The notes below the pieces were generated by a model, which saw only the letters and a program-made list of their open reading frames with translations, did no database searches and was not told the origin of the DNA. Below, one piece after another: positions 5,134 through 58,842 of a DNA stretch of 64,000 bases (positions within the stretch are counted from its first letter, which is position 1; each line of letters opens with the position of its first letter). Source of the stretch: a virus; IMG/VR virus record IMGVR_UViG_3300050343_000285, positions 96,001 to 160,000 of that record; one strand, given 5' to 3'. A program made the translations under genes and the position numbers.

Positions 5134-6448
5134 TTAAACATTGATAATGATTTTTTCACACCAATCCCCACCCTCTATATGAGGTATTATAACGCAGTGA
5201 TGCACATTTCCTTCACATGAAAATTTAGCGTGATGTGAGTTTCTTCTTTTACTAAAGCATTCTTCGTAATAAGCTTCCTCATGATTGAAATCTTTACGCC
5301 ATAGTAGTTTATTGTCTTTGTCTTCAAATCCAAAAAACCAAAAATCAAATTTAACATTATCAGGAATGTCGTCTCTGTTCCATTCTACATTATAATTATG
5401 GGTACCTAACATACCATTAGACCATTCTTCTTCTGACATAATATATGGCTCTGGTATTTCTGTAGAATCATGGATACGAGATGCATACTTATGCACTTTT
5501 CTGTTTTGGAAATCTAGACCACAATACAGTTCGTATTCGTGTAAACTTCTCTTATTACCAAACCCATAATGTCTAAAGTCTATATTAGAAATTTCCATAC
5601 CAAAAAGTTTTCTTTGTCTTTCTTTAGACCTAATATTTCTAGCTTCAGCTTCGATGTCAAAATCATTGGACTTTACATGATCCTCCCAATGTTTATGCTC
5701 TTTTTGTCTTAAATACTCATGCCATATAATAGAATATGTTGGATGAAACATATCATAGCCATGAGTATATGCTCTAGCGCTCAAAGTTACTTCTTCACCA
5801 CGAAAATATAAATTGGGGTCGTAAATACATTCTCTACAAAAATGACCAGAAGTGAAGATGAAGTGACCAGAAAGCAATCTAGCTTTAATTAAATTAATAC
5901 CTTTAGATTTCAAAAATTTATGATTATTAATGAGTTGTGGTCTAGATATTATATCACCATCATCGGTAAAAGTATCAAAAGTAACAATTCGATACGGCTC
6001 TTCTTTCAGTGGTTCTTTGTCTTCTTTATTCTGGCCAATAGGTTGTTCCATATGTACCAATAATTGGTTTAGATGAAGGAGCTTCCTGATATAGATTTTT
6101 TAAATATTCGTCCCCAGTGTTCTTTAAAAATCTATGATGAGAGTCTAGTTGCAAAATAATACTTCTTCATCTGTGATATAGATGTTTTTGTATAGTGTGC
6201 CTAGCCCAGCAAGCGCCCTTACTTTGTCTGCCAATCGCATTCATAAATTCTTAATGTTTTTATTATCTGTAAATTCTTGTATGGACTTTCGGATTCTTCT
6301 GTTTTTTGCCAACAAATGACCCACTCTAATGAGATCTGGGTGTTTAGCTTTTAATAAAAAGATCTCTTAGCGTCGGTAAAAGCTCAGGATCTCGATATGA
6401 GGCTATGCTTACAAATATCAGATTATTATTCTTTGTCGTTATGGACAT
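5134..6448 (-). CDS. GT60 (Gnt1/OGNT-type, GlcNAc family) protein O-alpha-GlcNAc transferase, frameshifted
   Basis: Manual reconstruction: MSITTKNNNLIFVSIASYRDPELLPTLRD, SKGACWARH, LQLDSHHRF, then in the annotated ORF LSGHFIF, YDPNLYFRGEE, RAYTHGYD, IIWHEY. Confidence 0.8.
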
Positions 6449-7170
6449 ATTCTCTTAATAAATTTAACGATTGGATATGTTTGTACACTAATATATTTAC
6501 ATTCAGATTTTATAATAAGATTAATGTGTTCATCAGTCCAGACATCTCCATTAAAAATGGTATTTATGCCTGATTTTTGTTCTAAATACTTAGATGCTAT
6601 AATATTATCATATATATTATCTAAAAAGAAATTACGTAGATGGATAAACAGTATCTATATTGTTTATACTCCATGTAGAATCGAACTAAAACTTAGCTAA
6701 TATATTATGATTATATTTTCTATAATCTAATAATATATCTGAATAGATGTATCTTCTGGAACGACTGTAGCTTTAATTCTGATAATCTCACTTCTAATTT
6801 TGTCGTATTTTCTATTAACTAAATAAGCACGACGGAGCCATGATAGAGATAATACCAGACTTCTTTGAGACTTCTTCTATCTTTTTTAATCATAGACAGA
6901 CGAATTACTGTACATTTAGTCCCTAGTGGATACGTCTATAGTGAATATTTATTTTGTTAGGATTGATTAAAAAAATTTTAGCTATTCTATATTGATGTTC
7001 ATTAATTAGTACAGAATTTAGATTTGTCGTACTGTCGTGGAGACTTTTTAAGAGTTTCTTTAGTTTCTTGGTCTGTTTAAGAATGAATCTATATAATATT
7101 CTACAAACATTTGATTTAATAATTATTTTTGTAGGTATTTAATAATATCGTCAACATAACTGATATTCAT
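6439..7170 (-). CDS. Hypothetical protein, multiply frameshifted
   Basis: ATG at 7170 and stitched reading-frame fragments fill the gap between clpP and the GT60 gene. Confidence 0.4.
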
Positions 7171-7177
7171 GCAGATC

Positions 7178-7789
7178 CTAAAATACTGCATCAGCGAAAC
7201 CATAATAAATACACTGTTCTGGAGATAATATCCAATCGGCTTTATTATCTAATTGAGATAATATATGTTTCTTAGCATTGACTCTTCTCCATTTTTTTTC
7301 TTTAACCAAAGGGGAGTCCATCAGTTTGTCTGTAAAAATATCTACCATTTTAGCAGCCTCCTTTTGACTCCATTCTAAATTAGATACTGCTACCTTATGA
7401 TCTCCATCCACAAAAGAACTTCCATAATGTATTAATGTGTATGAACTTGGCATCATAATCCTTAAATCAGCAGCCTGTAAAATGATACTTCCTGAAGATT
7501 CTGCTCTAGAATAAACTATAATAGCAATTGGTGAAGGACTTAGTCTAATAGCATCATACATACTCATACAATCACACCACTCTCCACCTGGTATATGCAT
7601 ATGTATTATTATTGGATCAAAAGATAGTTGATTTAAATATCTTAAATTTTTATGCAATGAGACAGCAGATCTAAAGTCTACACCATTATCATCATCTCCA
7701 TAAGTAGCAGAATGTAGATATATTTCCCTACTTCTTGGATCTATATTATGATTATGTAAATATTCTATATCTGAATTTAAATTTCTCAT
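7178..7789 (-). CDS. clpP: ClpP-family protease subunit
   Basis: PGG, AESSGS (catalytic Ser), LIHYG (His) and DWILSPEQCIYYGFAD motifs. Confidence 0.8.
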   Translation of the reverse strand: MRNLNSDIEYLHNHNIDPRSREIYLHSATYGDDDNGVDFRSAVSLHKNLRYLNQLSFDPIIIHMHIPGGEWCDCMSMYDAIRLSPSPIAIIVYSRAESSGSIILQAADLRIMMPSSYTLIHYGSSFVDGDHKVAVSNLEWSQKEAAKMVDIFTDKLMDSPLVKEKKWRRVNAKKHILSQLDNKADWILSPEQCIYYGFADAVF

Positions 7790-7790
7790 T

Positions 7791-12614: not shown

Positions 12615-13700
12615 ATAATGTCTCTATAATTTTATCAGTAGTTTTGGTCCAATTGAATTTTGAGGCTGTTTTCAAGCCAGCTTTATTTGTATTAATTTTA
12701 TTCGAATATACATATTTCATATAGTCTATGAAATTGTCTAAAAGGCCATCTAGAGAAGCCCATTGACCAGTACAATCGAAAAATTTACCATCGTCAGCTG
12801 ATTCTAAATTTTTAGCTTCTACGAGAAAACTATTAGATTTATCGCAGTACTCTGTATGCGCTGAATAGTTAGTCGTAATGACAGGTCTATCCATAGCCAT
12901 AGTTTCTATAACCTCGTTGTTCCAGCCTTCTGCTCTACTGGGATAGATACCACAATCAGACAGTTTGATAACTTTAGCAATATCTTTTTGAGTAGGTAGT
13001 CTAGGTAAAATTTTAATTTTATCTCCCAGCTTACTATTTTTATATAAATTATTCCACTGTTGATTTTCTTTACTGATAAAAATGGATTAGAATTTAACAT
13101 CCATAATTCAACATTATCTTTTTCGGTAAAAGCTTGATTGAACATATGTACCAGTAAGTCGTGTCCTTTTCTAATCTCCCATTTACCTATATTTAGAAAT
13201 ATATAAGTGCCTTCTTCTTTATCTTCTAATAAATCATTATATGAACTATAGTCAAAAACTTCAATATCCACACCAGCAGGAGCAACAATAATTTTATTAT
13301 GATCAATACCATTATCTATCAATATATTTTTTGCCCATTTAGATGGTACATAAATAATATCTAGTATATCATAACCCAATCTTTCTTGTTGTGTAATTTT
13401 ATCTATTTCGAAAAACGTATAACCAGCGTATAGATTTTTATTGTATGGCTTAATAATCATGTCATTAGCGTGCCATACTTTTAAGCAAGGTGATGTAATA
13501 TCATAATCAAGTTGATTTTTAATATCATCTACTAAACCCTTTTGATTCCAATGTTTTTCTATGGTTACTTCGTTTATAGGAAATAAAGTGGTAGATACGC
13601 TTTCTCTTAAATTTTTCCATAAGTTATAAGAACTAATACCATATCCTAAAGTGTTTATTGGTCCGTAAAAATTTAATTTTTTATTTATCATATTTTTCAT
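12607..13700 (-). CDS. GT4-family (GT-B) glycosyltransferase, frameshifted
   Basis: FLNIGKWEIRKG and PSRAEGW..E...MAMDRPVITTNYSAH motifs across frames. Confidence 0.8.
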
Positions 13701-18044: not shown

Positions 18045-18980
18045 TTATGTCTTTCTCATAAGCTTATTATTCATAATTATATATTCTATTAATGGTTTAT
18101 CCTCAAGATGCAACCATTGAATTTTTAAATTATTTTGTTGATTATCTATAAGATTTCCGTATATGTTTAAATCTTCTTTTAAATAACAAAAATTATTATA
18201 CATAATTACTAGATGTAATCTTTTATATTGTTCATTAAAAATAGGTATAGTTTTGCAAATATTGCCATGTATTTTTAGATTTTCATTTTGTATTAGATAT
18301 CCGAAAATTCTTTCAAGAGAATGACAATAGGTACCTGTATTAGAATTACCATCATGTACTTTTCCAATCTCATTGCTGAGTAGTATATCTAGAGTATCTA
18401 TTTTATCATTAAAATATTTTTGAAATATTTTTGTTTTTGACATAAACATAGACCCAGCGCTGAATAAACCTTTTTTTGTTTTATCATAATCTATATTTAG
18501 TAAACTACATAAATAGTTTATTTTATTAGAATTATTACCTTCTTTATTTTTTAGTTTTAAAAAGCTGTGAGAAATCATTCCAATATGTTTATTTTTTAAA
18601 ATTTTTAAATTATTATCAAAATTAAAGAGACTGCCGATATAAGTGTCAATCAGCACACTCCCCCAATCAACATGGAAGCTACCTCCCCATTTAGATTCTT
18701 TAGAGTGTAATTTAATAAAATATGGATAATCTTCATGGTTTATTTTAGAAATTTGATGTATAAAAGGAGCTATATCTACTCCATAGTTTGGATGAAAATT
18801 TATATTTTTAATTCTATTAGAATATTGATTAATAAAATTTAGTAAAGATGTACTATTTCTATTATGTTCTCCTATAGATAAATCAACATCTAAATATTTT
18901 ATATGATTTAATAATTTAGATATTTCTTCTAATCTATTTAATGAGTATAGAGAAAGTAAAAGAATGCATTTATGTTTCAT
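18045..18980 (-). CDS. Rhamnan synthesis F (RgpF)-like glycosyltransferase
   Basis: NYGVDIAPF, IKLHSK, AGSMF, HSLERIFG motifs. Confidence 0.75.
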   Translation of the reverse strand: MKHKCILLLSLYSLNRLEEISKLLNHIKYLDVDLSIGEHNRNSTSLLNFINQYSNRIKNINFHPNYGVDIAPFIHQISKINHEDYPYFIKLHSKESKWGGSFHVDWGSVLIDTYIGSLFNFDNNLKILKNKHIGMISHSFLKLKNKEGNNSNKINYLCSLLNIDYDKTKKGLFSAGSMFMSKTKIFQKYFNDKIDTLDILLSNEIGKVHDGNSNTGTYCHSLERIFGYLIQNENLKIHGNICKTIPIFNEQYKRLHLVIMYNNFCYLKEDLNIYGNLIDNQQNNLKIQWLHLEDKPLIEYIIMNNKLMRKT

Positions 18981-37016: not shown

Positions 37017-37017
37017 T

Positions 37018-45060: not shown

Positions 45061-45683
45061 TTACTTCTTTCATGCAAGATAAAATCTTTATAATATATTG
45101 TTTTAATTTTTTCAATATTATCATTTGATATTAGAATATTTTCTGAAGATGACATATTAAGTTTAGGCATATTTCGATATACGTTAGAAATATTTTCAAT
45201 ATTAATAATTAATTGTTTTTTAAAAAACCAAAAAATATCGGGAATAAAATCACTTTGAAGAAAAAAATGATGAGGTTCTGATATAAAATTTAATTTAGAA
45301 AAATTATTTAATACTATATCACCTATATCTTCGATTATATTAATTTCATTATGTTTTATTTTAATAATATTCTTAAGCCATTCATGCCCATATTGTTTTC
45401 TTGTTCCATTCACAAAATAATGAGATAATAAAGATTTGAATCTTTTAATAGGATCTCTCGTTATGATCATACCTTCGTTATATATAGATAAATTTTGTTT
45501 TAATATCGGTATCTTATTTTTAAAATATTTCTTACATACGAAACTAGCATTTTTAGGCACTTCTACCCAAAGTGTTTTTGTTTGAAAACTTTTACATAAA
45601 CTCATATCCCATAGATACGTAAACTTGTTGCAGTAGGTGCAATTACATGAATTTAGATTTTTTATATCTGTACTTTTAATCAT
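45057..45683 (-). CDS. Sulfotransferase (family 2-like)
   Basis: VPKNAS 5'-PSB loop and RDPIKRFKS 3'-PB motif. Confidence 0.65.
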   Translation of the reverse strand: MIKSTDIKNLNSCNCTYCNKFTYLWDMSLCKSFQTKTLWVEVPKNASFVCKKYFKNKIPILKQNLSIYNEGMIITRDPIKRFKSLLSHYFVNGTRKQYGHEWLKNIIKIKHNEINIIEDIGDIVLNNFSKLNFISEPHHFFLQSDFIPDIFWFFKKQLIINIENISNVYRNMPKLNMSSSENILISNDNIEKIKTIYYKDFILHERSK

Positions 45684-47055
45684 TTGCCTGCTTGCGATCT
45701 ATAAAATTATTTAAGTCTTCTGGAGTGCCTATTCCCCACATTTTATCTACATGAAAAATAGATATTTTTTTATTATCAGCTATTGCTTCATTAAATACAG
45801 GACATACATAAAATTCATTATTATATCTTTTATTTAACTTAATCATTTGCTTAGCGTATTTAACATAATCTGAACCCTTTTTCCAATAGTAAACTCCTAC
45901 TGTTGCTATATTTGATATTGGGTTTTTTTCTGCTACTTCATTTACAAAACCAGTTTCTTTATCTATCTTAACAAAAGACCATTTAGGATGTGTTGATTCA
46001 AATGTTAATATGCCAGCATCTACATTTTGTTCTTGCATTTTATACATAAATTTGCTTGTATTCCATTCCACATATTGATCAGAGTTAGCTATAATTAGAG
46101 GATTGTCATTATCTATTTCTTTTTCTGCTAACAATGTGGTACACGCTGCCCCATCAGTGATACCATCAACTTCTATAACCTTAGGATTTTTTGTAATAAT
46201 ACTTAATAATGAATCTAAATTATATTTTAGTCTATGATTTTTTTGAACAATAAATATATGATTTGCTTTAAAGTTTAAATTATCTACAACTAACTGTATC
46301 ATTGGCTTATTGTCTATTTCTATTAGAGGTTTAGGGAAGGTATAGCCTGCTTGATCAAACCTACTACCTGCACCAGCCATAGGGATTAAAACATTTAGAT
46401 TAGTATCTTCCCATTTTATATTCTGTTTCATGATTGTATTCTCCGTTTTAATTTTTTTTGAAATATTTTCTATTGTAACTTCATCAGGGCTAGATACACG
46501 GTATACATTAGCTCCAGAAATTTCAGCAGCTTTTAATCCATTAGGGGAGTCTTCAACAATTAGGGTTTCATTTGGTACAGTTTTGAGGATTGACATAGCT
46601 TTCCAATAAATTTCAGGATGAGGCTTGGATGTGGATACATCTTCATTTGTTAAAATTAAATCAAAATACTCGATAACACCAATTTTTGATAGCATAGTAT
46701 ATACTGATCTTCTAATAGAATTAGAGCAACATGATATTTTATAATTTTGAGATAAATAATAAAAAACTTCAACTAACCTATTATCTTTATGTAAAGACTC
46801 GAATTTTTGCAAAGTTATACGTTGTTTAAGATCCCATATTTTTGTATGTAAATTTACTGTTAGTCCTCTGTTTTCTGTAAGTAGTTTTAATTTTTCATAA
46901 GTTTTCAATCCATCATATTTTCTATAATGATCTTGTTTTGATATAATATATTGCTCACCAGCTATGGTATATAAGGCTTCATTCAAAGCATCATAATGCA
47001 TATCCTTAGCTTTTACTAAAACCCCATCTAAGTCGAAAATAATATGCTTAATCAT
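45676..47055 (-). CDS. HAD phosphatase fused to a sugar-phosphate nucleotidyltransferase
   Basis: FDLDGVL, KPHP, EDS (HAD); LIPMAGAGSRF, PKPLI, DGAA, GTPEDL (NTP transferase). Confidence 0.85.
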   Translation of the reverse strand: MIKHIIFDLDGVLVKAKDMHYDALNEALYTIAGEQYIISKQDHYRKYDGLKTYEKLKLLTENRGLTVNLHTKIWDLKQRITLQKFESLHKDNRLVEVFYYLSQNYKISCCSNSIRRSVYTMLSKIGVIEYFDLILTNEDVSTSKPHPEIYWKAMSILKTVPNETLIVEDSPNGLKAAEISGANVYRVSSPDEVTIENISKKIKTENTIMKQNIKWEDTNLNVLIPMAGAGSRFDQAGYTFPKPLIEIDNKPMIQLVVDNLNFKANHIFIVQKNHRLKYNLDSLLSIITKNPKVIEVDGITDGAACTTLLAEKEIDNDNPLIIANSDQYVEWNTSKFMYKMQEQNVDAGILTFESTHPKWSFVKIDKETGFVNEVAEKNPISNIATVGVYYWKKGSDYVKYAKQMIKLNKRYNNEFYVCPVFNEAIADNKKISIFHVDKMWGIGTPEDLNNFIDRKQAND

Positions 47056-48047
47056 TATAATTTTTTCTTTAGTATATTTAATATTTTATCGCAAGAGTTG
47101 CCATCACCATATGGGCAAGATTCATTTACTATTTCTATTTTGGTGTTTTTAAAAATTTTATACAAATCCTTTGGAGATTGACACAGTGTAGAGAACGTCC
47201 CAAGACCTTCTTTTCTTTCAGTTGTTGTCCGACAAACTATACTCTTTTTTTGCAAAAATGAAGACTCTTCTTGAAGGCCCCCGCTATCAGTTATTAATAT
47301 ACTACATTTAGCAATTATATCTATACATTTATTATAAGACAAAGGATCTATTACTTTAACGTTTTTGAATACATATTTATATTTTTGTATTTTATTATTT
47401 GGATGCATAGGAAAAATAAATTCTAAATTTTTATACATAGTTGCTATGTCCTCAATAGCTACAAACCAGTCTTTAATTATTTTTAAATTTTCTCTCCTAT
47501 GTAATGTTATTAAAACCTTGTTTTCTAAAGTTGGTTGAATATTTTTTAAATTATCTAAAACTGTGTTACCAACTAAATAAGTTTCGCCAGAATGATAAGA
47601 CTTTATATTATTTAAATTTTCTTGAGTTGGGCATAGATGTATATCTGCCATATTGCTAATAGCAATTCTATTAAACTCTTCTGGATAGGGATGATTAATA
47701 TTTCCTGATCTAAGTCCAGCTTCTAAATGTATAATTGGTATTTGTCTATGAAATGAGGATAAAGCTACAGCAAAAGCAGAGGTTGTATCTCCTTGAATTA
47801 ATGTATGTGTAACATTGTGAAAAATTGGATTAATCTTACTTAGTATAGAAGATATTATTGAATCCAACCTGTTTGCTGAATTATCTATATTAATATATAT
47901 GGGGTTATATTCAGTAATAAATTTATCTATTAACTCGTTATGTTGCTTAATATATAATAGTTTATAATCAATATTATTTTTTATTTTGTCAATTAATGGT
48001 TTAATTTTTATCCATTCTGGTCTTGTCCCGAAAGCTATTAATAGCAT
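47055..48047 (-). CDS. wecB: UDP-N-acetylglucosamine 2-epimerase (non-hydrolysing type)
   Basis: GTRPE.IK, QGDT, HLEAGLRS, PEEFNR, VGNT, TLHRREN, TDSGGLQEE. Confidence 0.9.
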   Translation of the reverse strand: MLLIAFGTRPEWIKIKPLIDKIKNNIDYKLLYIKQHNELIDKFITEYNPIYINIDNSANRLDSIISSILSKINPIFHNVTHTLIQGDTTSAFAVALSSFHRQIPIIHLEAGLRSGNINHPYPEEFNRIAISNMADIHLCPTQENLNNIKSYHSGETYLVGNTVLDNLKNIQPTLENKVLITLHRRENLKIIKDWFVAIEDIATMYKNLEFIFPMHPNNKIQKYKYVFKNVKVIDPLSYNKCIDIIAKCSILITDSGGLQEESSFLQKKSIVCRTTTERKEGLGTFSTLCQSPKDLYKIFKNTKIEIVNESCPYGDGNSCDKILNILKKKL

Positions 48048-48059: not shown

Positions 48060-48797
48060 TTATTCTATATTTTTTACTGTATTCCACCCGTTATCAATAG
48101 CATGTTCTACGCAAAGATTTCTTTGACTAAAAAAGGTCTTGTGAGACACTACTGTATTTTTACTAGTTGCAACTCTGTCTCCACCCAGCTTAATAGGTTC
48201 CAAAGATCCATGCAGAGACTTATCATTTTTAGGATGAGGAGGGCAGTAAGTATTAATTTTACCAAATTTTTGAGCCAAATATGAAAACTGTATATCTTCT
48301 CCGTTATCTAACATAAAAGGTTTTTCAAACCACATATATTTCAACCATTCACTTTTAAAAAACCATGCATGACCTACTAAATCAACTCTTTGTATCTCCG
48401 TATTCAAACTGGGCCACCCAGCTCTAGTATGATTTCTATATACTCTAGAATTTAAAATTACACCAGCAGATCCTAATATACCGTTACATTGATTTATAGA
48501 ACTTAAACAATTTTCAAACCATCTTTTTCCAGGAATTGTGTCATCATCAAATACTGCTATATAATCACTTTGTGATAAGAGGGCAGCAGAAAACCTACCA
48601 TAAAACTTCCAATTAAAATTATTATCAAATGTTTTATCAACATCAAAACTCTTTAAGTCTACTTGCTCATTATCCTGATGTAGATTTCTCCATAACCAAA
48701 TATCTGTTGTTTTAATTGTTTGATTCCTAATTGATTCTATTTGTTTTTTAAGATTTTGAGGTCTTCTGTATAAATTTAATATAGTTGTTATAGTCAT
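48060..48797 (-). CDS. GT2-like glycosyltransferase
   Basis: TILNLYRRP, VFDDDTIPG (DxD), GEDIQFSY. Confidence 0.75.
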   Translation of the reverse strand: MTITTILNLYRRPQNLKKQIESIRNQTIKTTDIWLWRNLHQDNEQVDLKSFDVDKTFDNNFNWKFYGRFSAALLSQSDYIAVFDDDTIPGKRWFENCLSSINQCNGILGSAGVILNSRVYRNHTRAGWPSLNTEIQRVDLVGHAWFFKSEWLKYMWFEKPFMLDNGEDIQFSYLAQKFGKINTYCPPHPKNDKSLHGSLEPIKLGGDRVATSKNTVVSHKTFFSQRNLCVEHAIDNGWNTVKNIE

Positions 48798-49651: not shown

Positions 49652-51156
49652 TTTTTTGTTTTTGAAAAAAATATACAGTATCTATGGAATCTACTAGAGT
49701 AAAACCATAGCTTTTAATCTTATTGATACACTTTTCTTTAAATTTTTTATCTTTCATTAAAAACTGATGTATTTCTATAAGTATCTTGTTACAATTTTGT
49801 ATCACATGAGCGTTTTCCTCTAAAAAAATTAACTCACCACCTTCACAATCTATATTCATGCAGTTAATATTTTCTATATTTTTTTATACTACTTAATTTA
49901 ATACATTCTAAATTATAATCTCTTCTGGTTTTTGCGAAATTTCTACCATTATCAACTCGATCAGCTGACCCAGCAACTATCAAATTATAAGTCTGAAAAT
50001 TAACTATATCTAATGTTTGCGAAATATAACCAAATACCAAGTCTACATTTTTTATATTGTTCTCTTGCATTGTCTTCTGTAATGACTCTTTGAGTTCTGG
50101 ATTGGCTTCCACAGATATGACATGCTTACATTTTCTTGATAATCTTAGAGTAGTAATACCTAAACATGATCCAATCTCTAAAACATTATCCTTTTTATTT
50201 AAATATTTATTAATTAAACATAATTCTGTTTTTTCATATATTTTATTACGAAATCTTTGCATTAGTTCTGGTATGCAATATCTCTTTGGTATAAATATTT
50301 TATTATTTAGATAATTCACGGATTGTATATCTTTTTGTTTTCTTAAACTTTCTCTTTTGATTTTTTCCCCATCTAGTAAAATCCTCGAAGCTGCTGGCTG
50401 GCTCATACTAGATTCAACATCTCTAATACCTTTTACTAATTTAAATAATCCAGCAGGCTCAAGACTCGATAAATGGTCACTACCCCACATATTATGATTA
50501 AGAGTAATGTGCCTTTCGACCCATTCAGCACCTAGAGCCACTGAAGCAAAAGTAGATACTAAGCCATACTCATGACCACTATAGCCTATCTGTCTTGTAG
50601 GCCATCTTTTTTTCAGCCATTTGATATAGTTAAGATTAATTTCATTTACTGGACAAGGATACGTGCTATTTGTATGCATAACAACATCAGCATCGCACGA
50701 GTATATACAGTCTTCTATTTCTTTTTCTGTACTCATACCAGTAGATATTATTAAAGTATTAAACTTTTTTTTAGAATGAACACAAAGATCCCTATCTGTA
50801 ATAACAGCAGAAGGTATTTTTGCAATATTTACATATTTGCTCATTAAATCTGCACTAGGAATATCCCAAACACTAGCAAACATTTTAATATTTTGGCTTT
50901 TAGCATAGTCTATCAATTCAACAATTTGCTCTTCATTAAATTCAATTTTTTCTTTATACTCAAGATATGTCATATCCCCCCAAGGTGTTGATCGCATCTT
51001 GGTCTTTTGGTCTTCTGGAACACAAATGCTTGGCGTTCTTTTTTGAATTTTTACATAATCACAGCCAGAAGCACTAGATATATTAATGAGTTTTTTACAG
51101 GTGTCGATAGAGCCATTGTGGTTGATCCCTATTTCCGCTATAATCTTGGTTTTCAA
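49632..51156 (-). CDS. neuB: N-acetylneuraminate (nonulosonate) synthase fused to an FkbM-type methyltransferase (one frameshift near 49870)
   Basis: IIAEIGINHNG, KIQKRTP, KIPSA, ISTGMS, GYSGHE, VERHITL; then in frame VLEIGSCLG, VEANP and, after an A-run indel, NIDCEGGE. Confidence 0.85.
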
Positions 51157-52355: not shown

Positions 52356-52651
52356 TTAAAATACTCATTAGAATTTATATTTTTGTCATCTATAAAGATA
52401 TCGTATACTGGTTTACCAAAAAGCATTTGACTATACTTAACAAGCCATCTATTGAATTGTTCAATTGTAACGGCCCTCCAATCAATACCGCTTTTAGTGC
52501 CTCTAGCAGTCCAATAAATAATTGTGTGGCCTTGATTATACAGATCATTCATTTTGGCTATTCTATCATAAATTGGCGTGGCTTCAGAATAGTCCTGACT
52601 ATCTGTAGGTAGTTTACAAATTGTATCATCTATATCTATATATATTATCAT
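52352..52651 (-). CDS. Small HAD-superfamily phosphatase (capsule-biosynthesis type)
   Basis: IDIDDT, WTARG, GKP..D.FIDDK. Confidence 0.8.
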   Translation of the reverse strand: MIIYIDIDDTICKLPTDSQDYSEATPIYDRIAKMNDLYNQGHTIIYWTARGTKSGIDWRAVTIEQFNRWLVKYSQMLFGKPVYDIFIDDKNINSNEYFK

Positions 52652-53207
52652 AAGTCTACAGCTTTCATCCCTTCATCATATGTTAAAAACGCCGCTATTG
52701 TATATCTAGAGCCTTTAGTTATTTTTGTTACCCCATGAAGACAATCCATACTGCCAAGATGAATCGCAGTATGACCTTTTTTGGGCTTAATTTCTATATT
52801 TCTTTCTGGATAATAAAGCAAACCGCCTTCAAAATCTTCGTTTAAAAATGTTACTATACCAAAATCCCTCCAAGGATAGTCATGAGGAGGACATCCCGGC
52901 GGATTTTCAGCATCGGCATGTGGCTGTAAATCATAACCTTCGGGCCATCTAGCGATGCTAAAATGCTCACAAAAAAACTTTCTTGCTGGTTAAATTCTCT
53001 AACTTGTCTACTACAGATTTAAGAGACTCTAGCATAACATTCTGAACTTCCGGGTTTTTTTACTTGGTGATAGAATAAAGTTCTACCTTGCCAGTAGTTT
53101 TGCTCACTTAATTCTCCAAAATCTTTTGAATTATTATCTAAGTAATCTATAATTAAATTTATATCTTCTTGATTTGTTATATTTTCAAAGACCATAGGAA
53201 ATGTCAT
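52648..53207 (-). CDS. 2OG-Fe(II) oxygenase, prolyl 4-hydroxylase-like (frameshifted, mostly absent from ORF track)
   Basis: Manual translation: IARWPEGYDLQPHADAENP...FLNEDFEGGLLYYP...CLHGVTKITKGSRYTIAAF (HxD...H...R). Confidence 0.82.
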
Positions 53208-53222
53208 GACTATGTATCCTCC

Positions 53223-53978: not shown

Positions 53979-55844
53979 TCCAATCTCATTATTCTGTTCA
54001 CTGGTATAGTTTTAGTATTTACTTCTTCCTTGTATCTTTCTTTCATCCATTTAGTTTTCAGTCTATCTGGAACCATCATAAACCCAAAATAAGCAAGATA
54101 ATGTAAAATACTGGCTTTGGTATAAAAACTCAATACATCGTTTTCGTCTAATGATATTTCAGAAGCACCACTACCATATATAATATCTGGGCCATGAATA
54201 TCATCAAGTTCTACTCCAGAGTTATTTAAAAACCATTAACATAGAATATTGGTCTGATAAATGATCAAACCATTTGTAATCTTTTTCGTTTAGTACTTCT
54301 TTTGCTTTTTTTAATAGTTTTTTTCTTTCTATCTTAATCTTATTGCTAAAATCTTTAATTTTTTCGTGATATATTTTACTGGGTAAGATAATTTGGCCCC
54401 CATTGATTCCGTTACCTCCTAAGACCTTTTTAATTGTTTCGTCGCTCCCCTCGCCTATTACATAAGCACAATCATTTCTATTATATTTATTAAACATATA
54501 CGCTGGATTTTTAGTAAAGATAATATCACTATCTATAACAAATACTTTATCATAGTCAAAATTTGCAAAGAGATGATCCATAGTATTCCATTTAAAAAAG
54601 AAGACATCGCTATTCGTCTCTCTGTTAAAATCAAACTCTATAAAATTAACATCTGGAAAATCTAAAAATAAATTTTCATCACCTTCAAAAACTTTAGTGC
54701 TTTTTAAATCATTTTTTTGTTTATTATAATATACAACTATATCGAATTGTTTTTCTGTTTTATATGAAGTTTTATATAGTGTTTCTAAAGCATAATAAAG
54801 CATACAATAATATTTCATATTATTATCATTATAATCATCAAGAAATAATGCGAAAACGATTGCTCTTGTCTCAACTACATCTCCCACTACTTCACTTGGG
54901 TCTTTAACAAATAAGTTTTGCCAATATTTATTCGGATTATTAATTTTATTTATTTTCAATTTCCAATTTTTAGCGCATTCTATTAATTCATTGTTTCTTA
55001 AATATTTAGGGAGCATGAAACAGGAATGACCAGCAGAATAGTGTACGATACACGTTTTAATATTGTCTATTACGATATCATTATTTTTAACAGAGACATC
55101 ATAAACTGTATTATCTGACTCTAAATTAGAACGAGATGGCGTAGTAAAATCTTCTACTTCTAAATCTCCAAAGTCTTTACTATTTTTAGTTAATATATTT
55201 TGACCACAATATTGCTCATTAAAGAATGTAAAATTATTATATTTATCAAGAGTAATTTCTTTTTTATTTAATAACTTTTTTGCTGCTTTATTGAGTCTAA
55301 TTCTTTCTTTAACAACATCTTTATAGAAATTATTTGCATCTTTATGAAACTTTTTAGGTATTAATAGTTGACCGCTACCCATAGGTGATAATGTGGGGCA
55401 CACCTGTGTTGCTGTATCATCCCAAAGACCATAACCATATATTTTTTTATTATCATATTTATTAAAAATATAATTTGGATTTTTATAGAAAATAACGTCA
55501 CTGTCTATTAAGAAAATCTTATCGTAGTCATACTTGAATACATTTTCTAGATTATGCCATTTGCTCATCCAAGGAGTATTGACACCATTAGGGTCTGTTT
55601 CTATTGTGTACTTTTTATCATAAGTGCTTTCTGTTAATATAAATTTATTTTTAAATTCATTATATATACTATATTCTTCTAAATATTTATATTTTTTAAA
55701 ATCAGGAAATGTATAATATACTCTAACATCAAATGACTCATCATATAAATTATCTAATGTTTTTAATGCATAGTAAAGCATTGCGTAGTATGTTGAATTT
55801 TGATTTAAGCAACATATCGAAAAATACAAACAGTTATTATTCAT
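53975..55844 (-). CDS. Protein with two tandem DxD glycosyltransferase-like domains (C-terminus frameshifted)
   Basis: Internal duplication MLYYALKTL..IFLIDSDVIF..GQL..NEQY / MLYYALETL..VFVIDSDIIF..GQI..DQY; stitched C-terminus ends at the ATGA overlap. Confidence 0.6.
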
Positions 55845-56826
55845 ATTCTTTATTATCCTTATAAAATTTATGAATAAATTTTTCTTTATATAGTTTATCA
55901 ATATCAATATCAACTGAAGATATTTCTTTTAATTTATTTTTTAATATTTTTGTATGCTTTCTTTGTGTAGATACAGCATCCTGTCTTATCCTTTGTCTTT
56001 GCTCTAAGGTGGGATAATTAAGTAGCCATTTTCCTACACATTCGGCTACACTTTCTGGGCTATCGTCTGCTATCAAACAGTTAGTACTTGTAAAAAAAGT
56101 ATCTCTACCACCTTTTGATTTAGTAGAGACTATAGGTAATCCGCATAATAAATATTCTATACTACTATACATCGCTCCTTCGCTACTAGAGAGACATAAC
56201 CCCACCCGTGATCTGTTTAATACATCGTTAACTTGATTCTTATTTATCAAGTTATGATATAAAGTAAAAGGATTATTCTGATTAGCCATTAATAACATAT
56301 GACCCTTTTTAGTGTATGGATGAGGCAATCTATTTTCTGAAGTTAAATATAGAATGTTGCTCAAATTATAAGAAAGATGATGTCTTTTGTATGGACACAT
56401 TCTGGCTGTATATACACAATCCCACATTTTATCACAAGACTGTATATTAAAAATTTTCCTACTTACGGTGGCATTGTGATTACATAATATTCCAGAAAAT
56501 CTACTGCCATATTCTTTTGGTATCCTATTTAATGTTTCAATATCATTACAGCATATAACTATATTAAGATCAGTAGTCTCTCCTAATATCTGATTAATTT
56601 GAGGTTTGAGTGCCTTCCAAGACGCATCATTCAATGTGCGATATTGCCATAAAAATAATGTATAAGGATTGTCTTGGTTTTTAATGTACCTTATTGTATT
56701 GCTTAATAAATTTTTATTTTTAGGATTCAGAGGTATATTTTTTTTATCTTTTAGTATTCCTGTCGTACCAAATAATACGTTTATCTCTGGTATTTCAAAC
56801 AATTTATTCAATTTATGCCTCCACAA
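55837..56826 (-). CDS. GT4-like glycosyltransferase
   Basis: YTARMCPYKRH and LSSSEGAMYSSIEYLLCGLPIVST; start position uncertain. Confidence 0.75.
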   Translation of the reverse strand: MWRHKLNKLFEIPEINVLFGTTGILKDKKNIPLNPKNKNLLSNTIRYIKNQDNPYTLFLWQYRTLNDASWKALKPQINQILGETTDLNIVICCNDIETLNRIPKEYGSRFSGILCNHNATVSRKIFNIQSCDKMWDCVYTARMCPYKRHHLSYNLSNILYLTSENRLPHPYTKKGHMLLMANQNNPFTLYHNLINKNQVNDVLNRSRVGLCLSSSEGAMYSSIEYLLCGLPIVSTKSKGGRDTFFTSTNCLIADDSPESVAECVGKWLLNYPTLEQRQRIRQDAVSTQRKHTKILKNKLKEISSVDIDIDKLYKEKFIHKFYKDNKEYE

Positions 56827-57155
56827 TTTTCTCTAATGATATCATTAGACAAAAGTTCAGACCAATAAATTTCGTAGGCTACTGTTTCCTCAAGAGCCTC
56901 GAACATATGATATTCTTTAGGCTTAACAACAGACATTTGCTTTGATGCTATTATAGTTTCGTCTTTTAGGTCGTAATCATTTTTCCATATACTAATTTTT
57001 AAAGAGCCTTTTTCTATAAAGAATGCATTATACTTATTATCATGCTTATGTTTAGAACAGTAACCTCCTTTATTAACTTCTATACGATGAATTTCAACAT
57101 TATTTTTTAAAAAAAGTTGTTGAGTTAAACCCCATATTTTCCCCTGAATATTCAT
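56808..57155 (-). CDS. Cupin-domain protein (sugar isomerase-like)
   Basis: KIWG, CSKHKH...N.F.IE.G, KPKEYHMFEA. Confidence 0.7.
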   Translation of the reverse strand: MNIQGKIWGLTQQLFLKNNVEIHRIEVNKGGYCSKHKHDNKYNAFFIEKGSLKISIWKNDYDLKDETIIASKQMSVVKPKEYHMFEALEETVAYEIYWSELLSNDIIRENCGGIN

Positions 57156-57764
57156 TTATATAGCCTTTATATTTTTAGGTATATATTCGTAATTATATTT
57201 AATTAAAAGTTTTTTATATTTATTCATAAAATTTTCTACAGTTTTGGATTGTATATTTAAAGGATATAAACTATGCTTATTGATTTTATCTTTATGAATT
57301 ACATTGTATCCTTTTAGTATTTGAGATAGATCTTGCTGCAAGTTTTCCTGCCTACCTATGAGCCAAGCATCTTTTGTATAATTATTAAAAAAAGTTTCCA
57401 AGAAATTAGAATGGTAGTTGGCGCATCTCTGCACCGTATCATTTAGATCGTCTTCATTTATACATTCATGCCAATGGCTCCAATTATTTTTACTTTCCCA
57501 ATTATTCTTGGGTTTAGAGTTTTGACTATCTCTACAATTTGCATGTTTCCAGTGTCCCCATACTGAACAAACTAAAGAAAGGGGATGCCTAATAAAAGTA
57601 AAATATTTTTTACTAGTACTGGTTTTTTCCTTGACAACAAAATATGGATCGTGTTTTTCACAAATGTTTTTCCCATTACATTGGCGACTTAATATATTTT
57701 CAATATAAGTACCACCAGTTTTGGGCATATGTATAAATATCATATCATTTAGTTCAATAGCCAT
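57156..57764 (-). CDS. Sulfotransferase-like protein
   Basis: FIHMPKTGGT and FIRHP motifs. Confidence 0.7.
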   Translation of the reverse strand: MAIELNDMIFIHMPKTGGTYIENILSRQCNGKNICEKHDPYFVVKEKTSTSKKYFTFIRHPLSLVCSVWGHWKHANCRDSQNSKPKNNWESKNNWSHWHECINEDDLNDTVQRCANYHSNFLETFFNNYTKDAWLIGRQENLQQDLSQILKGYNVIHKDKINKHSLYPLNIQSKTVENFMNKYKKLLIKYNYEYIPKNIKAI

Positions 57765-58327
57765 TATATATACTCGTAATTAAATCTTTCAAAATCCTCT
57801 GTGTAGTAATCATAAAGATTATTTTTCTGCTCTTTAGTTATATTAATATTTATTATCTGGGTCTCGTTTGTTTTTTTTATCTTAACAGGTATGCCTTTGT
57901 CTATTAGAAATCTTTTTACATCTAAATCATATTGTTCGAATTTTATGACATTATCTGCATGTTCTATACAGTTATAAGGATGGGTTATTGGTATAGCATG
58001 ATGTTTAAAACTTTCAATTCTACCATATTCATTATCATATGCAAGGCTATCATCTTTTAAATAATTTATCGCAGTATCTATTGTTAAGTCTCTAATTTCC
58101 GGCGGGAACACGGTTGTTCCAAATTTAAACATTTTAAAAGCAGATAAAAACCTTTCTATCGGATGTCTGCAAAAACCTATCTTATTATAATTAATATATT
58201 CATTAGGTATATATCCTTTATACCTTTCTGTAAATTTTACACCTGAATATCTTCTAATAGATGATCCTCCACACTTCGGTATATGTATTATAATTAATTT
58301 ATATTTATGGTTAATAAAATTACTCAT
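57764..58327 (-). CDS. Sulfotransferase (family 2)
   Basis: IHIPKCGGSSI, RHPIERFLSAF, YY.EDFERFNY. Confidence 0.8.
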   Translation of the reverse strand: MSNFINHKYKLIIIHIPKCGGSSIRRYSGVKFTERYKGYIPNEYINYNKIGFCRHPIERFLSAFKMFKFGTTVFPPEIRDLTIDTAINYLKDDSLAYDNEYGRIESFKHHAIPITHPYNCIEHADNVIKFEQYDLDVKRFLIDKGIPVKIKKTNETQIININITKEQKNNLYDYYTEDFERFNYEYI

Positions 58328-58842
58328 ATTACTAATTTAATAATTACACAATCATCATTTTTGGGTGTAGCATTTATAGCAGCAGGATTTATGAGATTAT
58401 ATATTCTATCATACCACCAATGCATATTTTTAATAGTTTTATGACAGTTGGTTTTATCTGGTAATAAGATAGTTGCCTCTCTAGTTGAAATAGCATGATA
58501 CATAAATTTTGGTTTTAGATATAACATTTCCTCAAATATATTATCTAGTTCATCTTCATATATATGTTCTAACAAATCGGTAGTAATAACTAAATCATAT
58601 TTTTCTTTGGGTATTTTTTCTTTCCCAGGATAGCATGGGTCAAATTCATCAATTAATACATTTCGCTTTCTTAAACTTTTCGCTAAGGAACCAGTACCAG
58701 AGCCAAAATCTAAAACAGTTTGCGCTCCAGTTTGACGTATAAGGTTTAATATATCTTCAGCGTACTCTAAGCCAGTGTCTCCATAATTACGCTCCTGATG
58801 CAACTGCTTGTATAATTTAAGGTCTTTATAATGATATTTCAT
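58324..58842 (-). CDS. Class I SAM-dependent methyltransferase
   Basis: VLDFGSGTG, FDP, YDLVITTDLLEHI. Confidence 0.85.
   Translation of the reverse strand: MKYHYKDLKLYKQLHQERNYGDTGLEYAEDILNLIRQTGAQTVLDFGSGTGSLAKSLRKRNVLIDEFDPCYPGKEKIPKEKYDLVITTDLLEHIYEDELDNIFEEMLYLKPKFMYHAISTREATILLPDKTNCHKTIKNMHWWYDRIYNLINPAAINATPKNDDCVIIKLVI

What the first reader, a model, noticed from the sequence alone, without database searches (positions are those of the whole stretch)
5134..58842. Candidate phage-encoded mucin/extensin glycoprotein pathway (a virion glycocalyx)
Seen in sequence: two giant cytoplasmic Thr/Pro-repeat proteins (20074-27897, 29803-34918) sit among about 20 GT-like genes. The same window has a GT60 O-GlcNAc transferase (5134-6448), a prolyl-hydroxylase-like 2OG oxygenase (52648-53207), GT77, GT11 and GT2 transferases, Glf (UDP-Galf), NeuA/NeuB, three sulfotransferases and several methyltransferases. 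None of the GTs shows a clear TM or signal peptide, and I found no Wzx/Wzy/ABC exporter or undecaprenyl-P priming transferase here. Established knowledge: the Dictyostelium Skp1 pathway is P4H, then GT60 Gnt1, then GT2/fucosyltransferase PgtA, then GT77 AgtA. Trypanosoma cruzi GT60 TcOGNT2 primes Thr-rich mucins later bearing Galf and sialic acid. Plant GT77 enzymes (RRA, XEG113) arabinosylate extensins. Chlorovirus PBCV-1 encodes a P4H acting on Pro-rich repeats. Inference: this bacteriophage hydroxylates and O-glycosylates its own mucin/extensin-like fibres in the cytoplasm. That would give a sulfated, methylated, nonulosonate-capped glycan coat for adhesion, protease resistance or host mimicry.
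Basis: partly seen in the sequence, partly recalled or inferred. Interest (0 to 1): 0.92.

Follow-up and report, generated by a model that had tools for sequence, protein, structure and literature searches.

The report
Phage glycan island with mucin-like giants
An uncultured 195-kb marine tailed phage carries two huge threonine/proline-repeat proteins inside a large island of soluble sugar-adding, sulfating and methylating enzymes, so it probably sugar-coats its own fibre-like proteins, but no sugar has been shown on any protein.

Summary
The window belongs to a complete 194.8-kb tailed-phage record. It holds a 2607-aa modular protein with Pro/Thr stalks. It also holds a ~1700-aa protein that is about two-thirds Pro+Thr.

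Both sit in an island with 10 Pfam-supported glycosyltransferases, Glf, a nonulosonate pathway, a 2OG oxygenase, methyltransferases and a sulfotransferase. Corrections:
- I count about 14 GT-like genes in the window, not 20.
- Pfam supports one sulfotransferase in the window, though six in the genome.
- The breaks in GT60 and the oxygenase gene are probably assembly indels; GT60 is intact in relatives.

New here:
- GT60 is a core gene of a widespread marine phage lineage.
- Both giants recur in relatives, and assemblies break inside them.
- A GT42/sialyltransferase-fold enzyme is present.
- An FGE-sulfatase-like protein shares a small beta-sandwich domain with giant 1.
- The genome has no lipid-carrier or export genes.
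- Some gene content is of planctomycete type.

Self-glycosylation of the giants is the best reading (about 0.5) but rests on circumstantial evidence. Virion attachment is not shown. One relative keeps GT60 but has lost the body of giant 1.

Earlier notes of this scan report GT60 next to Thr/Pro giants in several other phage genomes. I found no paper describing this.

The parts
2390..3136 (-). GT25 glycosyltransferase
   Evidence: PF01755, E 3.4e-20. 78% identical orthologue in G002.
3133..4062 (-). GT2 glycosyltransferase
   Evidence: PF00535, E 7.6e-8.
4108..4680 (-). Truncated GT2-like ORF
   Evidence: Sub-threshold PF00535. The G002 orthologue is 357 aa against 190 aa here.
5134..6448 (-). 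GT60 polypeptide GlcNAc-transferase homologue, read in three frames here
   Evidence: PF11397 pieces of 103.8, 32 and 24 bits. Intact 428-aa orthologue at L012:9599-10885 scores 226.7 bits. Several single-base indels relative to G001 in the first ~300 nt of the alignment.
12906..13700 (-). GT4/GT1-type glycosyltransferase, truncated here
   Evidence: Weak PF13439. The 360-aa G002 orthologue hits Glycos_transf_1 at 46 bits.
18045..18980 (-). RgpF-type rhamnan-synthesis transferase
   Evidence: PF05045, E 9.9e-12.
18970..20061 (-). UDP-galactopyranose mutase (Glf)
   Evidence: PF03275, E 2.5e-72.
20074..27897 (-). Giant 1: 2607-aa modular adhesin-like protein. Order: N-terminal 'GDGW' beta-sandwich, Pro/Thr stalk, conserved globular domains including LamG, Thr/Pro linkers, Cys-rich C-terminus.
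   Evidence: 81% identical over 1500 aa to a 2711-aa orthologue in G002.
27894..28892 (-). FGE-sulfatase-like domain plus C-terminal GDGW domain. Its stop overlaps the giant 1 start.
   Evidence: Atlas structure TM 0.63-0.71 to PF03781 clusters. 30.6% identity over 386 aa (E 1e-34) to L080:1888-3054, which carries PF03781. GDGW is 36% identical to the giant 1 N-terminus.
28885..29601 (-). Conserved 238-aa protein of unknown function between the giants
   Evidence: 41% identical orthologue in G002. ORFs of matching size in the same order in L083.
29803..34918 (-). Giant 2: ~1700-aa mucin/extensin-like protein. Order: 37-aa N-terminal peptide ending CCCD, Thr run, PTTTT / TETLTETP / PPAPPT / poly-Pro blocks, Cys-rich C-terminal domain. 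One frameshift lies in the Thr run.
   Evidence: C-terminus conserved in G002 (49% in the pairwise alignment). N-terminal peptide 36/37 identical in L024 and L025.
35705..36421 (-). Methyltransf_24 / CmcI-type sugar O-methyltransferase
   Evidence: PF13578, E 1.1e-13.
36366..37058 (-). DUF3431 protein
   Evidence: PF11913, E 1.4e-11.
37018..37686 (-). GT42/MptE-fold protein, a candidate CMP-nonulosonate transferase
   Evidence: AlphaFold2 pLDDT 91. VIA-align Z 11.1-11.9 to the CstII, Cst-I and Pasteurella sialyltransferases, tied with MptE at Z 12.2. Overlaps NeuB in relative L026.
37871..38725 (-). GT11 fucosyltransferase family
   Evidence: PF01531, E 8.5e-19.
38703..39560 (-). GT77-type nucleotide-diphospho-sugar transferase
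   Evidence: PF03407, E 3.5e-8.
43362..43997 (-). CMP-nonulosonate synthetase (NeuA type)
   Evidence: PF02348, E 8.2e-26.
45676..47055 (-). HAD phosphatase/mutase fused to a sugar nucleotidyltransferase
   Evidence: PF13419 and PF00483.
47055..48047 (-). UDP-GlcNAc 2-epimerase
   Evidence: PF02350, E 1.4e-63.
48060..48797 (-). GT2 glycosyltransferase
   Evidence: PF00535, E 4e-7.
49864..51156 (-). NeuB nonulosonate synthase fused to a methyltransferase domain
   Evidence: PF03102, E 1.1e-59, plus methyltransferase hits at residues 304-395.
52648..53207 (-). P4H-family 2OG-Fe(II) oxygenase, read in two frames here
   Evidence: PF13640, 34.8 bits, at 52684-52959. ORF pieces. A 193-aa orthologue is called in L026.
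55837..56826 (-). GT1-group glycosyltransferase
   Evidence: PF00534, E 2.8e-7.
57764..58327 (-). Sulfotransfer_2-family sulfotransferase
   Evidence: PF03567, E 3.5e-12.
58324..58842 (-). Class I methyltransferase
   Evidence: PF13489, E 8e-9.

Best explanation
A lytic marine tailed phage encodes its own cytoplasmic protein-glycosylation system.

Proposed mechanism (inferred):
1. Soluble enzymes make nucleotide sugars: UDP-Galf by Glf, a CMP-nonulosonate by the epimerase, NeuB and NeuA, and an NDP-sugar by the HAD-nucleotidyltransferase fusion.
2. A GT60 enzyme primes Thr residues, and perhaps hydroxyproline made by the 2OG oxygenase.
3. GT2, GT25, GT11, GT77, GT1 and RgpF-type enzymes extend the chains.
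4. A GT42-fold enzyme caps them with nonulosonate.
5. Methyl- and sulfotransferases finish them.

The most likely acceptors are the two giant Thr/Pro-repeat proteins in the island. They have no signal peptide, so they would leave the cell at lysis. They probably act as bottle-brush fibres carrying lectin-like and Cys-rich heads, most plausibly attached to the virion.

Shown here: the genes, their families, their soluble nature, their conservation, and the lack of lipid-carrier and export genes. Inferred: every enzymatic step, the choice of acceptor, and virion attachment.
For: - True GT60: 226.7 bits for the intact orthologue. It is a core gene kept at 46-88% identity next to ClpP in every relative examined. 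From established knowledge, every characterised GT60 enzyme is a polypeptide GlcNAc-transferase.
- Thr/Pro tracts exist only in the two giants in the whole genome.
- Giants recur in relatives. Giant 1 is in G001, G002, L079 and L083. Giant 2 is in G002, L024/L025 and L083.
- Independent assemblies end inside the giants' repeats: G001, G002, L024/L025 and L079. The contig behind L076 and L080 starts in a Cys-rich ORF at the matching place.
- The giant 2 N-terminal 37-aa peptide is 36/37 identical in a relative whose neighbouring protein is only 63% identical.
- No GT has a TM segment.
- No Bac_transf, WecA/MraY, Wzx or Wzy gene in a genome that CheckV rates 100% complete.
- A sialyltransferase-fold enzyme lies next to the nonulosonate genes.
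- Two Sulfotransfer_2 genes sit inside the plus-strand structural module.
- Giant 1 carries a LamG domain similar to one in an annotated virion structural protein of Vibrio phages D480 and D485.
Against: - No direct evidence of glycans, hydroxyproline or virion location.
- The giants lie in the minus-strand block together with RuvB, not in the plus-strand structural module.
- GT60 is 14-29 kb from the giants.
- Relative L080 keeps GT60, GT1/4, GT25, Glf and the methyltransferase but has only the giant 1 N-terminal domain, fused to Glf.
- Relative L026 shows no giant within 8 kb downstream of the GT42-like and NeuB genes.
- Soluble GTs are also usual in LPS and capsule synthesis, and host flippases could serve them.
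- All relatives examined are syntenic kin, so co-occurrence is largely shared ancestry.
Confidence: 0.5

Rival explanations
1. The island remodels host surface glycans (LPS, capsule or surface glycoproteins) during infection, for example to block superinfection. It would use the host's own lipid carrier and exporters. The giants would be unrelated fibre or adhesin proteins whose Pro/Thr tracts are plain spacers.
For: - GT25, GT2, RgpF, GT1, Glf and NeuA/B are families common in LPS and capsule loci.
- A PAP2-family gene lies at 10263-10814.
- The island content varies strongly between relatives, as surface-glycan loci do.
- Giant 1 is dispensable in L080.
Against: - No priming transferase, flippase or polymerase in the complete genome.
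- GT60 and the P4H-family oxygenase belong to families whose characterised members act on proteins (established knowledge).
- More than 15 GTs, a nonulosonate pathway and six sulfotransferases are a heavy load for a lytic phage with a short infection.
- Two sulfotransferase genes lie in the structural module.
Confidence: 0.2
2. The glycosylation system is protein-directed, but its main targets are other virion proteins (capsid, tail or decoration proteins) or host proteins. The giants are unglycosylated or only marginally glycosylated.
For: - In mycobacteriophages the glycans sit on capsid and tail-tube C-termini, as summarised in PMC12619734.
- GT60 is conserved with ClpP rather than with the giants.
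- Sulfotransferases lie in the structural module.
- L080 lacks the body of giant 1.
Against: - No other protein in the genome has a Thr/Pro-rich acceptor-like tract. The only other low-complexity hit is a Ser/Gly stretch in an 805-aa protein in the plus-strand block.
- The giants lie inside the island, directly next to Glf, RgpF and a methyltransferase.
Confidence: 0.2
3. Some or all of the transferases hypermodify phage DNA with sugars.
For: - Phage GTs that glycosylate DNA with diverse glycans are known (Pyle et al. 2024, as cited in PMC12619734).
- A weak nucleoside deoxyribosyltransferase-like ORF and an IMPDH/GMP-reductase gene lie in the island.
Against: - No thymidylate-synthase or hydroxymethylase family gene in the genome.
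- Sulfation, methylation, nonulosonate and Galf chemistry, together with GT60 and the P4H-family oxygenase, do not fit DNA modification.
Confidence: 0.04

Closest known systems
CAZy GT60 polypeptide alpha-GlcNAc-transferases of protists (Dictyostelium Gnt1 on Skp1 hydroxyproline; Dictyostelium Gnt2 and Trypanosoma cruzi OGNT on mucin Thr)
   Same: - Full-length PF11397 domain.
- A D-S-H motif in the N-terminal part, visible in the alignment.
- No TM segment, as for cytoplasmic Gnt1.
- Thr-rich and Pro-rich repeat proteins are encoded in the same genome.
   Different: - Encoded by a tailed phage of a prokaryote.
- No Skp1 or PgtA homologue was identified, though I did not search for them.
- The acceptor is unknown.
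- The family was not found in 201 Planctomycetota genomes sampled. It is present in four annotated jumbo Xanthomonas and Stenotrophomonas phages and in 3447 metagenomic proteins.
Glycosylated fibrils of Megavirinae giant viruses (PMC10117803, PMC9614988)
   Same: - Virus-encoded sugar-nucleotide synthesis and glycosyltransferase clusters proposed to decorate fibrils around the capsid, independent of host machinery.
- Clade-specific variation of the clusters.
   Different: - The host here is a prokaryote and the virus is a ~195-kb tailed phage.
- The candidate scaffolds are mucin/extensin-like repeat proteins.
- The enzyme families differ (GT60, GT77, GT11, sulfotransferases).
Mycobacteriophage virion glycosylation (Freeman et al. 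2023, as summarised in PMC12619734; I could not read the paper itself)
   Same: Phage-encoded glycosyltransferases that modify the phage's own structural proteins in the bacterial cytoplasm.
   Different: - From my own knowledge, mycobacteriophages have few GTs and place them next to the structural genes; the summary I read states only that glycans sit at capsid and tail-tube C-termini.
- Here there are at least 14 GT-like genes in the window, a nonulosonate pathway, sulfation and methylation.
- Here there are dedicated giant repeat proteins.
Plant and algal hydroxyproline-rich glycoproteins (extensins) and the chlorovirus PBCV-1 prolyl 4-hydroxylase
   Same: Long polyproline-type repeats, a P4H-family oxygenase and a GT77-type transferase in one genome.
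   Different: - The repeats are [12 protein letters not shown] and poly-Pro with almost no Ser, so there is no Ser-Pro(3-5) motif.
- No HPAT (GT95) or SGT1 was identified.
- The setting is cytoplasmic, not the secretory pathway.

Membership tests
CAZy GT60 / Pfam PF11397 | Full-length PF11397 domain above the gathering score | tested here: met
   The window has three pieces of 103.8, 32 and 24 bits covering profile positions 2-351. The intact orthologue in G001 scores 226.7 bits.
CAZy GT60 / Pfam PF11397 | Transfers GlcNAc from UDP-GlcNAc to Thr or Hyp of a polypeptide | not testable with these tools
   Needs an enzyme assay on repeat peptides.
CAZy GT60 / Pfam PF11397 | An intact gene in this genome | tested here: inconclusive
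   The gene is in three frames here. Frame breaks also hit TerL and other large genes when compared with G001. Assembly error is therefore likely but not proven.
Skp1 hydroxyproline glycosylation pathway (P4H1, Gnt1, PgtA, AgtA) | P4H-family oxygenase, GT60 and GT77 enzymes all present | tested here: met
   PF13640, PF11397 and PF03407.
Skp1 hydroxyproline glycosylation pathway (P4H1, Gnt1, PgtA, AgtA) | A Skp1 acceptor and a bifunctional PgtA (GT2 + GT74) | not tested
   I made no search for Skp1 or GT74. The fucosyltransferase-type gene found is GT11, not GT74.
Extensin-type hydroxyproline-rich glycoproteins | Ser-Pro(3-5) repeat motifs as arabinosylation and galactosylation sites | tested here: not met
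   Giant 2 has 30 Ser in 1669 residues. Its repeats are [17 protein letters not shown] and poly-Pro.
Mucin-type Thr-rich acceptors | Long tandem Thr-rich tracts | tested here: met
   (PTTTT)n and Thr runs in giant 2, and T-rich linkers in giant 1.
GT42 sialyltransferases / Maf-MptE fold (ORF 37018-37686) | The fold | tested here: met
   Model pLDDT 91. Z 11.9 (rmsd 3.8, 176 aligned) to CstII and Z 11.7 to Cst-I, tied with MptE HPPK at Z 12.2.
GT42 sialyltransferases / Maf-MptE fold (ORF 37018-37686) | Catalytic residues and use of a CMP-nonulosonate donor | not tested
   The only support is context. The gene overlaps NeuB in L026, and NeuA and NeuB lie in the window.
FGE-sulfatase (PF03781), ORF 27894-28892 | Homology to the family | tested here: met
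   30.6% identity over 386 aa (E 1e-34) to a relative's protein that carries PF03781. Atlas structure TM 0.63-0.71. The window protein itself gave no Pfam hit at E 0.01.
FGE-sulfatase (PF03781), ORF 27894-28892 | The catalytic cysteine pair of true formylglycine-generating enzymes | tested here: inconclusive
   I see no C-x4-C pair before the ...SRICKK end of the domain. The motif is recalled from memory and was not aligned to a solved FGE.
Lipid-carrier-dependent surface polysaccharide pathway (Wzx/Wzy type) | Priming phosphoglycosyl transferase, flippase and polymerase | tested here: not met
   PF02397, PF00953, PF01943 and PF04932 are all absent from the whole genome, while the controls matched. 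ABC-type exporters were not searched.

The most novel reading that the evidence does not exclude
The glycosylated giants are a 'glycan bait'. The host may be of PVC/planctomycete type, a group known from the literature to capture and take up sulfated polysaccharides. The phage would display long fibres carrying a sulfated, methylated, fucose-, Galf- and nonulosonate-type coat that mimics the host's food polymers. The host's own polysaccharide-capture apparatus would then pull the virion to the cell. The shared GDGW beta-sandwich on giant 1, on the FGE-like protein and (in a relative) on Glf would be a docking module. It would gather substrate and enzymes into one cytoplasmic glycosylation factory.
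Probability: 0.1. Interest if true: 0.92.

Novelty: new variant of a known kind. Interest (0 to 1): 0.74.

Why it matters
Virus-encoded glycosylation of virion fibres is established for giant viruses of eukaryotes. In phages it is known only in a minimal form, from mycobacteriophages.

If this reading is right, a bacteriophage would build a mucin-like glycoprotein entirely in a bacterial cytoplasm. It would do so with GT families better known from eukaryotic protein and glycan synthesis: GT60, GT77, GT11, GT25, Sulfotransfer_2, and GT43 in a relative. The product would carry sulfate, methyl groups and nonulosonate.

That would:
- extend the known range of prokaryotic protein O-glycosylation;
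- supply soluble enzymes for glyco-engineering;
- bear on how marine phages adhere to particles and hosts.

The gene set is widespread. There are 3447 GT60 homologues in metagenomes, many on contigs of 70-200 kb. Short-read assemblies break in the repeats, so the giants are systematically missed.

Tried and rejected
- Megablast of 24 kb of the window against 50,697 phage records gave no match.
- Giant 1 residues 505-1400 found no homologue of 1433-4563 aa in the 5.8-billion-protein set. They found none in 201 Planctomycetota genomes either.
- Giant 1's C-terminal 1207 aa found nothing in annotated phages.
- The giant 2 C-terminal domain found no viral contig by peptide patterns. A profile search found only eight representatives at E 1e-10 or better, all short fragments or small proteins.
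- PDB sequence searches found nothing useful for the GT42-like ORF, giant 1 or GT60.
- GDGW domain: a good model (pLDDT 90), but the best PDB match is only Z 6.9, to a calcium-dependent carbohydrate-binding module. That is a generic beta-sandwich, so the fold assignment is inconclusive.
- Xanthomonas phage XacN1 has a GT60. Its nearby 3313-aa baseplate-adjacent giant has only short Thr/Pro linkers, so this gives no clear support for a general GT60-mucin link.
- Moraphages (PMC12619734) were considered as the lineage. They were marker-typed there with a family B polymerase. An earlier, unchecked note of this scan reports a Pol III alpha in this genome. I did not test the relationship.
- Host assignment stays open.
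  - For a planctomycete-type host: DUF1559, DUF1501 and PSD1 genes, and a RuvB closest to Pirellulaceae.
  - Against it: Pirellulaceae ruvB loci have 49-68% GC against 33% here, and a related contig is binned in a Flavobacteriales MAG.
- Literature searches for GT60 in phages, phage mucin-like proteins, and phage sulfotransferase, P4H or nonulosonate virions found no precedent.
- Freeman et al. 2023 could not be read.

Full report
WHAT THE DNA IS

The window is bases 96001-160000 of a single 194,787-bp IMG/VR virus record. The record is linear and CheckV rates it 100% complete. GC content is 33%.

All window genes are on the minus strand. A plus-strand block at 18-64 kb of the genome holds the structural genes. 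That block contains a weak large-terminase hit (phrog_2, E 2.7e-7, and 29% identity to Bacillus phage terminases). It also contains tape-measure-like hits.

Start codons are preceded by a G-rich, Shine-Dalgarno-like signal at positions -11 to -8. I conclude it is a tailed phage of a prokaryote. No annotated phage matches it at the DNA level.

CHECK OF THE OBSERVATION

Giant 1 (20074-27897) is one 2607-aa ORF. It has an N-terminal ~100-aa domain, a Pro/Thr stalk at residues ~300-500, and conserved globular domains that include Laminin_G_3. It also has many short Thr/Pro linkers and a Cys-rich C-terminus.

Giant 2 (29803-34918) is read in two frames.
- A 37-aa N-terminal peptide ends in CCCD and runs into a Thr tract.
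- The frame slips inside that tract.
- The 1669-aa frame that follows has 681 Pro and 424 Thr. It is arranged as (PTTTT)n, (TETLTETP)n, (PPAPPT)n and poly-Pro, each block roughly duplicated.
- It ends in a ~320-aa Cys-rich domain.

In the whole genome only these two genes carry Thr/Pro-rich tracts.

Pfam supports these enzymes in the window:
- Glycosyltransferases: GT25, GT2 (three), GT60, GT1, RgpF, GT11, GT77-type.
- Sugar-nucleotide genes: Glf, NeuA, NeuB fused to a methyltransferase, UDP-GlcNAc 2-epimerase, a HAD-nucleotidyltransferase fusion.
- Modifying enzymes: two further methyltransferases, one Sulfotransfer_2, and a 2OG-FeII_Oxy_3 oxygenase.

That makes ten GT ORFs above Pfam cut-offs, one only through its orthologue (12906-13700). 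There are also a few sub-threshold ORFs, so 'about 20' is too high. Only one sulfotransferase lies in the window. The genome has four more Sulfotransfer_2 genes and one Sulfotransfer_1/3 gene. It also has further GT92, GT25+GT2 and GT2 genes and a GDP-mannose-dehydratase-like gene at 160-180 kb.

THE FRAMESHIFTS

GT60 is in three frames and the oxygenase in two. Many ORFs at 4-14 kb of the window are shorter than their orthologues in relatives.

I compared the ORFs of relative G001 that matched this genome. Ten of 76 are split across frames here. They include the 677-aa terminase and the tape measure. A viable phage cannot have a broken terminase, so assembly indels are the likeliest cause.

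GT60 is an intact 428-437-aa gene in G001 and G002 and in every other relative fetched. One caution remains. The several GT60 indels cluster in the first ~300 nt of the alignment to G001. I therefore cannot exclude decay in this particular genome.

RELATIVES

G001 (113.8 kb, 70-83% nucleotide identity, collinear) starts inside the C-terminal part of a giant 1 orthologue.

G002 (36 kb) starts inside the Pro-rich end of a giant 2 orthologue. It then carries the 228-aa and 329-aa neighbours, a 2711-aa giant 1 (81% identical over 1500 aa) and an intact GT60.

A JGI contig of 113.5 kb starts inside a giant 1 orthologue with 2277 residues called.

Two assemblies (L024 and L025) end exactly in the Thr run of giant 2. 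This comes after an N-terminal peptide that is 36/37 identical to the window's. The adjacent 222-aa protein is only 63% identical.

A 3.4-kb contig (L083) matches the unique stretch between the two repeat regions by ORF order and size.

So both giants are conserved genes of this lineage, and short-read assemblies regularly break in them. The near-invariance of the giant 2 N-terminal peptide argues for a specific function. An anchor or an assembly signal is my inference.

GT60 AS A CORE GENE

Across relatives at 46-88% GT60 identity the gene sits in a fixed block. The block runs: IMPDH-like, GT1/4, a sigma-70 region-4 protein, ClpP, a ~218-aa protein, GT60. The flanking glycan genes vary between relatives.

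The family has 3447 metagenomic members at E 1e-10 or better, many on contigs of 70-200 kb. Among annotated phages only four jumbo Xanthomonas and Stenotrophomonas phages carry it. It was not found in 201 Planctomycetota genomes.

NEW PARTS

(a) ORF 37018-37686 folds with high confidence (pLDDT 91). The fold is that shared by MptE and the GT42 sialyltransferases CstII and Cst-I, at Z about 12. In relative L026 its gene overlaps NeuB. I read it as the candidate nonulosonate transferase. The acceptor is unknown.

(b) The 332-aa ORF between the giants (27894-28892) has a stop that overlaps the giant 1 start. It is a divergent FGE-sulfatase-fold protein with a C-terminal ~100-aa 'GDGW' domain.
- The same domain forms the N-terminus of giant 1 (36% identity, E 5e-8).
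- In relative L080 it is fused directly to Glf (42% identity to the giant 1 N-terminus). The body of giant 1 is absent there.
- The domain models as a beta-sandwich (pLDDT 90). It has no decisive PDB match; the best is a carbohydrate-binding module at Z 6.9.

(c) Two Sulfotransfer_2 genes lie inside the plus-strand structural module, at genome positions 27356-27712 and 64129-64662.

WHAT IS ABSENT

The complete genome has no phosphoglycosyl transferase (PF02397), no WecA/MraY type (PF00953), no Wzx (PF01943) and no Wzy (PF04932). The control genomes matched in every one of these searches. No GT has a TM segment.

No thymidylate-synthase or hydroxymethylase family gene is present. This argues against hydroxymethyl-pyrimidine DNA glycosylation.

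HOST

The phage carries three gene families that I know as expanded in planctomycetes. They are a DUF1559 pilin-like protein with an N-terminal methylation motif, DUF1501, and PSD1/DUF1553.

The DUF1559 protein has 15-24 matches in each of three Pirellulaceae or Mariniblastus MAGs. It has none in a Flavobacteriales MAG. The closest cellular RuvB sequences are from Pirellulaceae, at 38-46% identity.

Against a planctomycete host:
- Their ruvB loci have 49-68% GC, against 33% here.
- The pattern-based scan is biased towards whichever genomes share exact peptides.
- A 78%-identical phage-like contig is binned in a marine Flavobacteriales MAG.

The host is unresolved. A PVC-type host is a lead only.

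MECHANISM AND RIVALS

The best-supported reading is a phage-encoded, cytoplasmic, lipid-independent protein-glycosylation system with the giants as main acceptors. I put it at about 0.5.

The chain of inference has three links:
1. GT60 enzymes are polypeptide-directed (established knowledge).
2. The only acceptor-like tracts in the genome are in the giants.
3. The giants sit in the island and are conserved with it.

Virion attachment is weaker, at about 0.45. In its favour:
- neither giant has a signal peptide;
- both have extracellular-type Cys-rich and lectin-like domains;
- sulfotransferases lie in the structural module;
- a LamG match falls on an annotated virion structural protein of Vibrio phages.

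Against it, the giants lie in the minus-strand block that also holds RuvB, not in the structural module.

A hydroxyproline route through the oxygenase is possible but unsupported beyond the presence of the family. I put it at about 0.3.

The rivals are:
- host-surface remodelling using host lipid machinery (0.2);
- protein glycosylation aimed at other targets (0.2);
- DNA glycosylation (0.04).

The loss of the giant 1 body in L080 with GT60 retained shows that GT60 does not depend on giant 1. The assemblies behind L076 and L080 start in a Cys-rich C-terminal ORF at the position where giant 2 would lie. It gave no blastp match to giant 2.

COMPARISON AND NOVELTY

The phage works like the glycosylated fibril layers of Megavirinae (PMC10117803, PMC9614988). 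It also works like mycobacteriophage virion glycosylation, as summarised in PMC12619734.

It differs in four ways: a prokaryotic host, dedicated mucin/extensin-like scaffolds, GT families better known from eukaryotes, and sulfation plus nonulosonate chemistry.

It is not an extensin system, because the Ser-Pro(3-5) motif is absent. It is not shown to be a Skp1-type pathway.

I found no paper describing such a phage system. Earlier notes of this scan report GT60 beside Thr/Pro giants in several other phage genomes. I did not test those notes. They suggest the association recurs, and they make this a further instance rather than a unique one.

I rate it a new variant of a known kind, with interest 0.74.

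Noticed in passing
L006:3888-4853 (genome 163888-164853); L007:13943-15635 (genome 192943-194635): The phage carries a DUF1559 pilin-like protein with an N-terminal methylation motif. At the contig end it carries DUF1501 and PSD1/DUF1553 genes. I know these families as expanded in planctomycetes. GC there is phage-like (0.30-0.34), so they do not look like host flank.
   Followed up: partly
window 42282-42890, with L024:4051-5052 as the intact orthologue: A Volactin-family actin homologue (PF25216). It is fragmented here (202 aa) and intact at 333 aa in relatives (E 2.2e-66). In relatives it is followed by an HNH gene, a trypsin-like protease and an S8 subtilase. The window keeps the subtilase at 40003-40908.
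   Followed up: partly
G000 29105-31139, 85524-87726, 74195-76083 and 45257-56481: The terminase, two large minus-strand ORFs and the tape measure are each split across frames compared with single ORFs in relative G001. This assembly carries many indel errors, and ORF-based notes on this genome should allow for that.
   Followed up: yes
G000 27356-27712 and 64129-64662 (plus strand): Two Sulfotransfer_2-family genes are embedded in the structural-gene block, away from the glycan island.
   Followed up: no
L080:3057-4616: In a relative, the ~100-aa GDGW beta-sandwich that heads giant 1 is fused directly to Glf (519 aa). The rest of giant 1 is missing. The same domain ends the FGE-like protein.
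   Followed up: partly
L024:11487-12188: A relative carries a GT43-family gene (E 1.3e-39) next to Glf and the methyltransferase. I know GT43 mainly from animal and plant enzymes.
   Followed up: no
window 34808-34918; ends of L024 and L025: The 37-residue N-terminal peptide of giant 2 is amphipathic and ends in CCCD. It is 36/37 identical in a relative whose neighbouring protein is only 63% identical. It occurs nowhere else in the genome.
   Followed up: partly
L028 (NZWA01000021.1, 8.9 kb, in a Flavobacteriales MAG): This contig has 33% GC and a RuvB 78% identical to the phage's. It is probably a phage contig binned into the MAG.
   Followed up: no
window 10263-10814: A PAP2-superfamily gene, truncated here (183 aa against 227 aa in relatives). 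Relatives also show a faint vanadium-chloroperoxidase-type hit. Its role is unknown, and it could bear on the lipid-carrier rival.
   Followed up: no
window 53223-53978: A DUF6065 protein (E 3.6e-39) lies directly upstream of the 2OG oxygenase. Its function is unknown.
   Followed up: no
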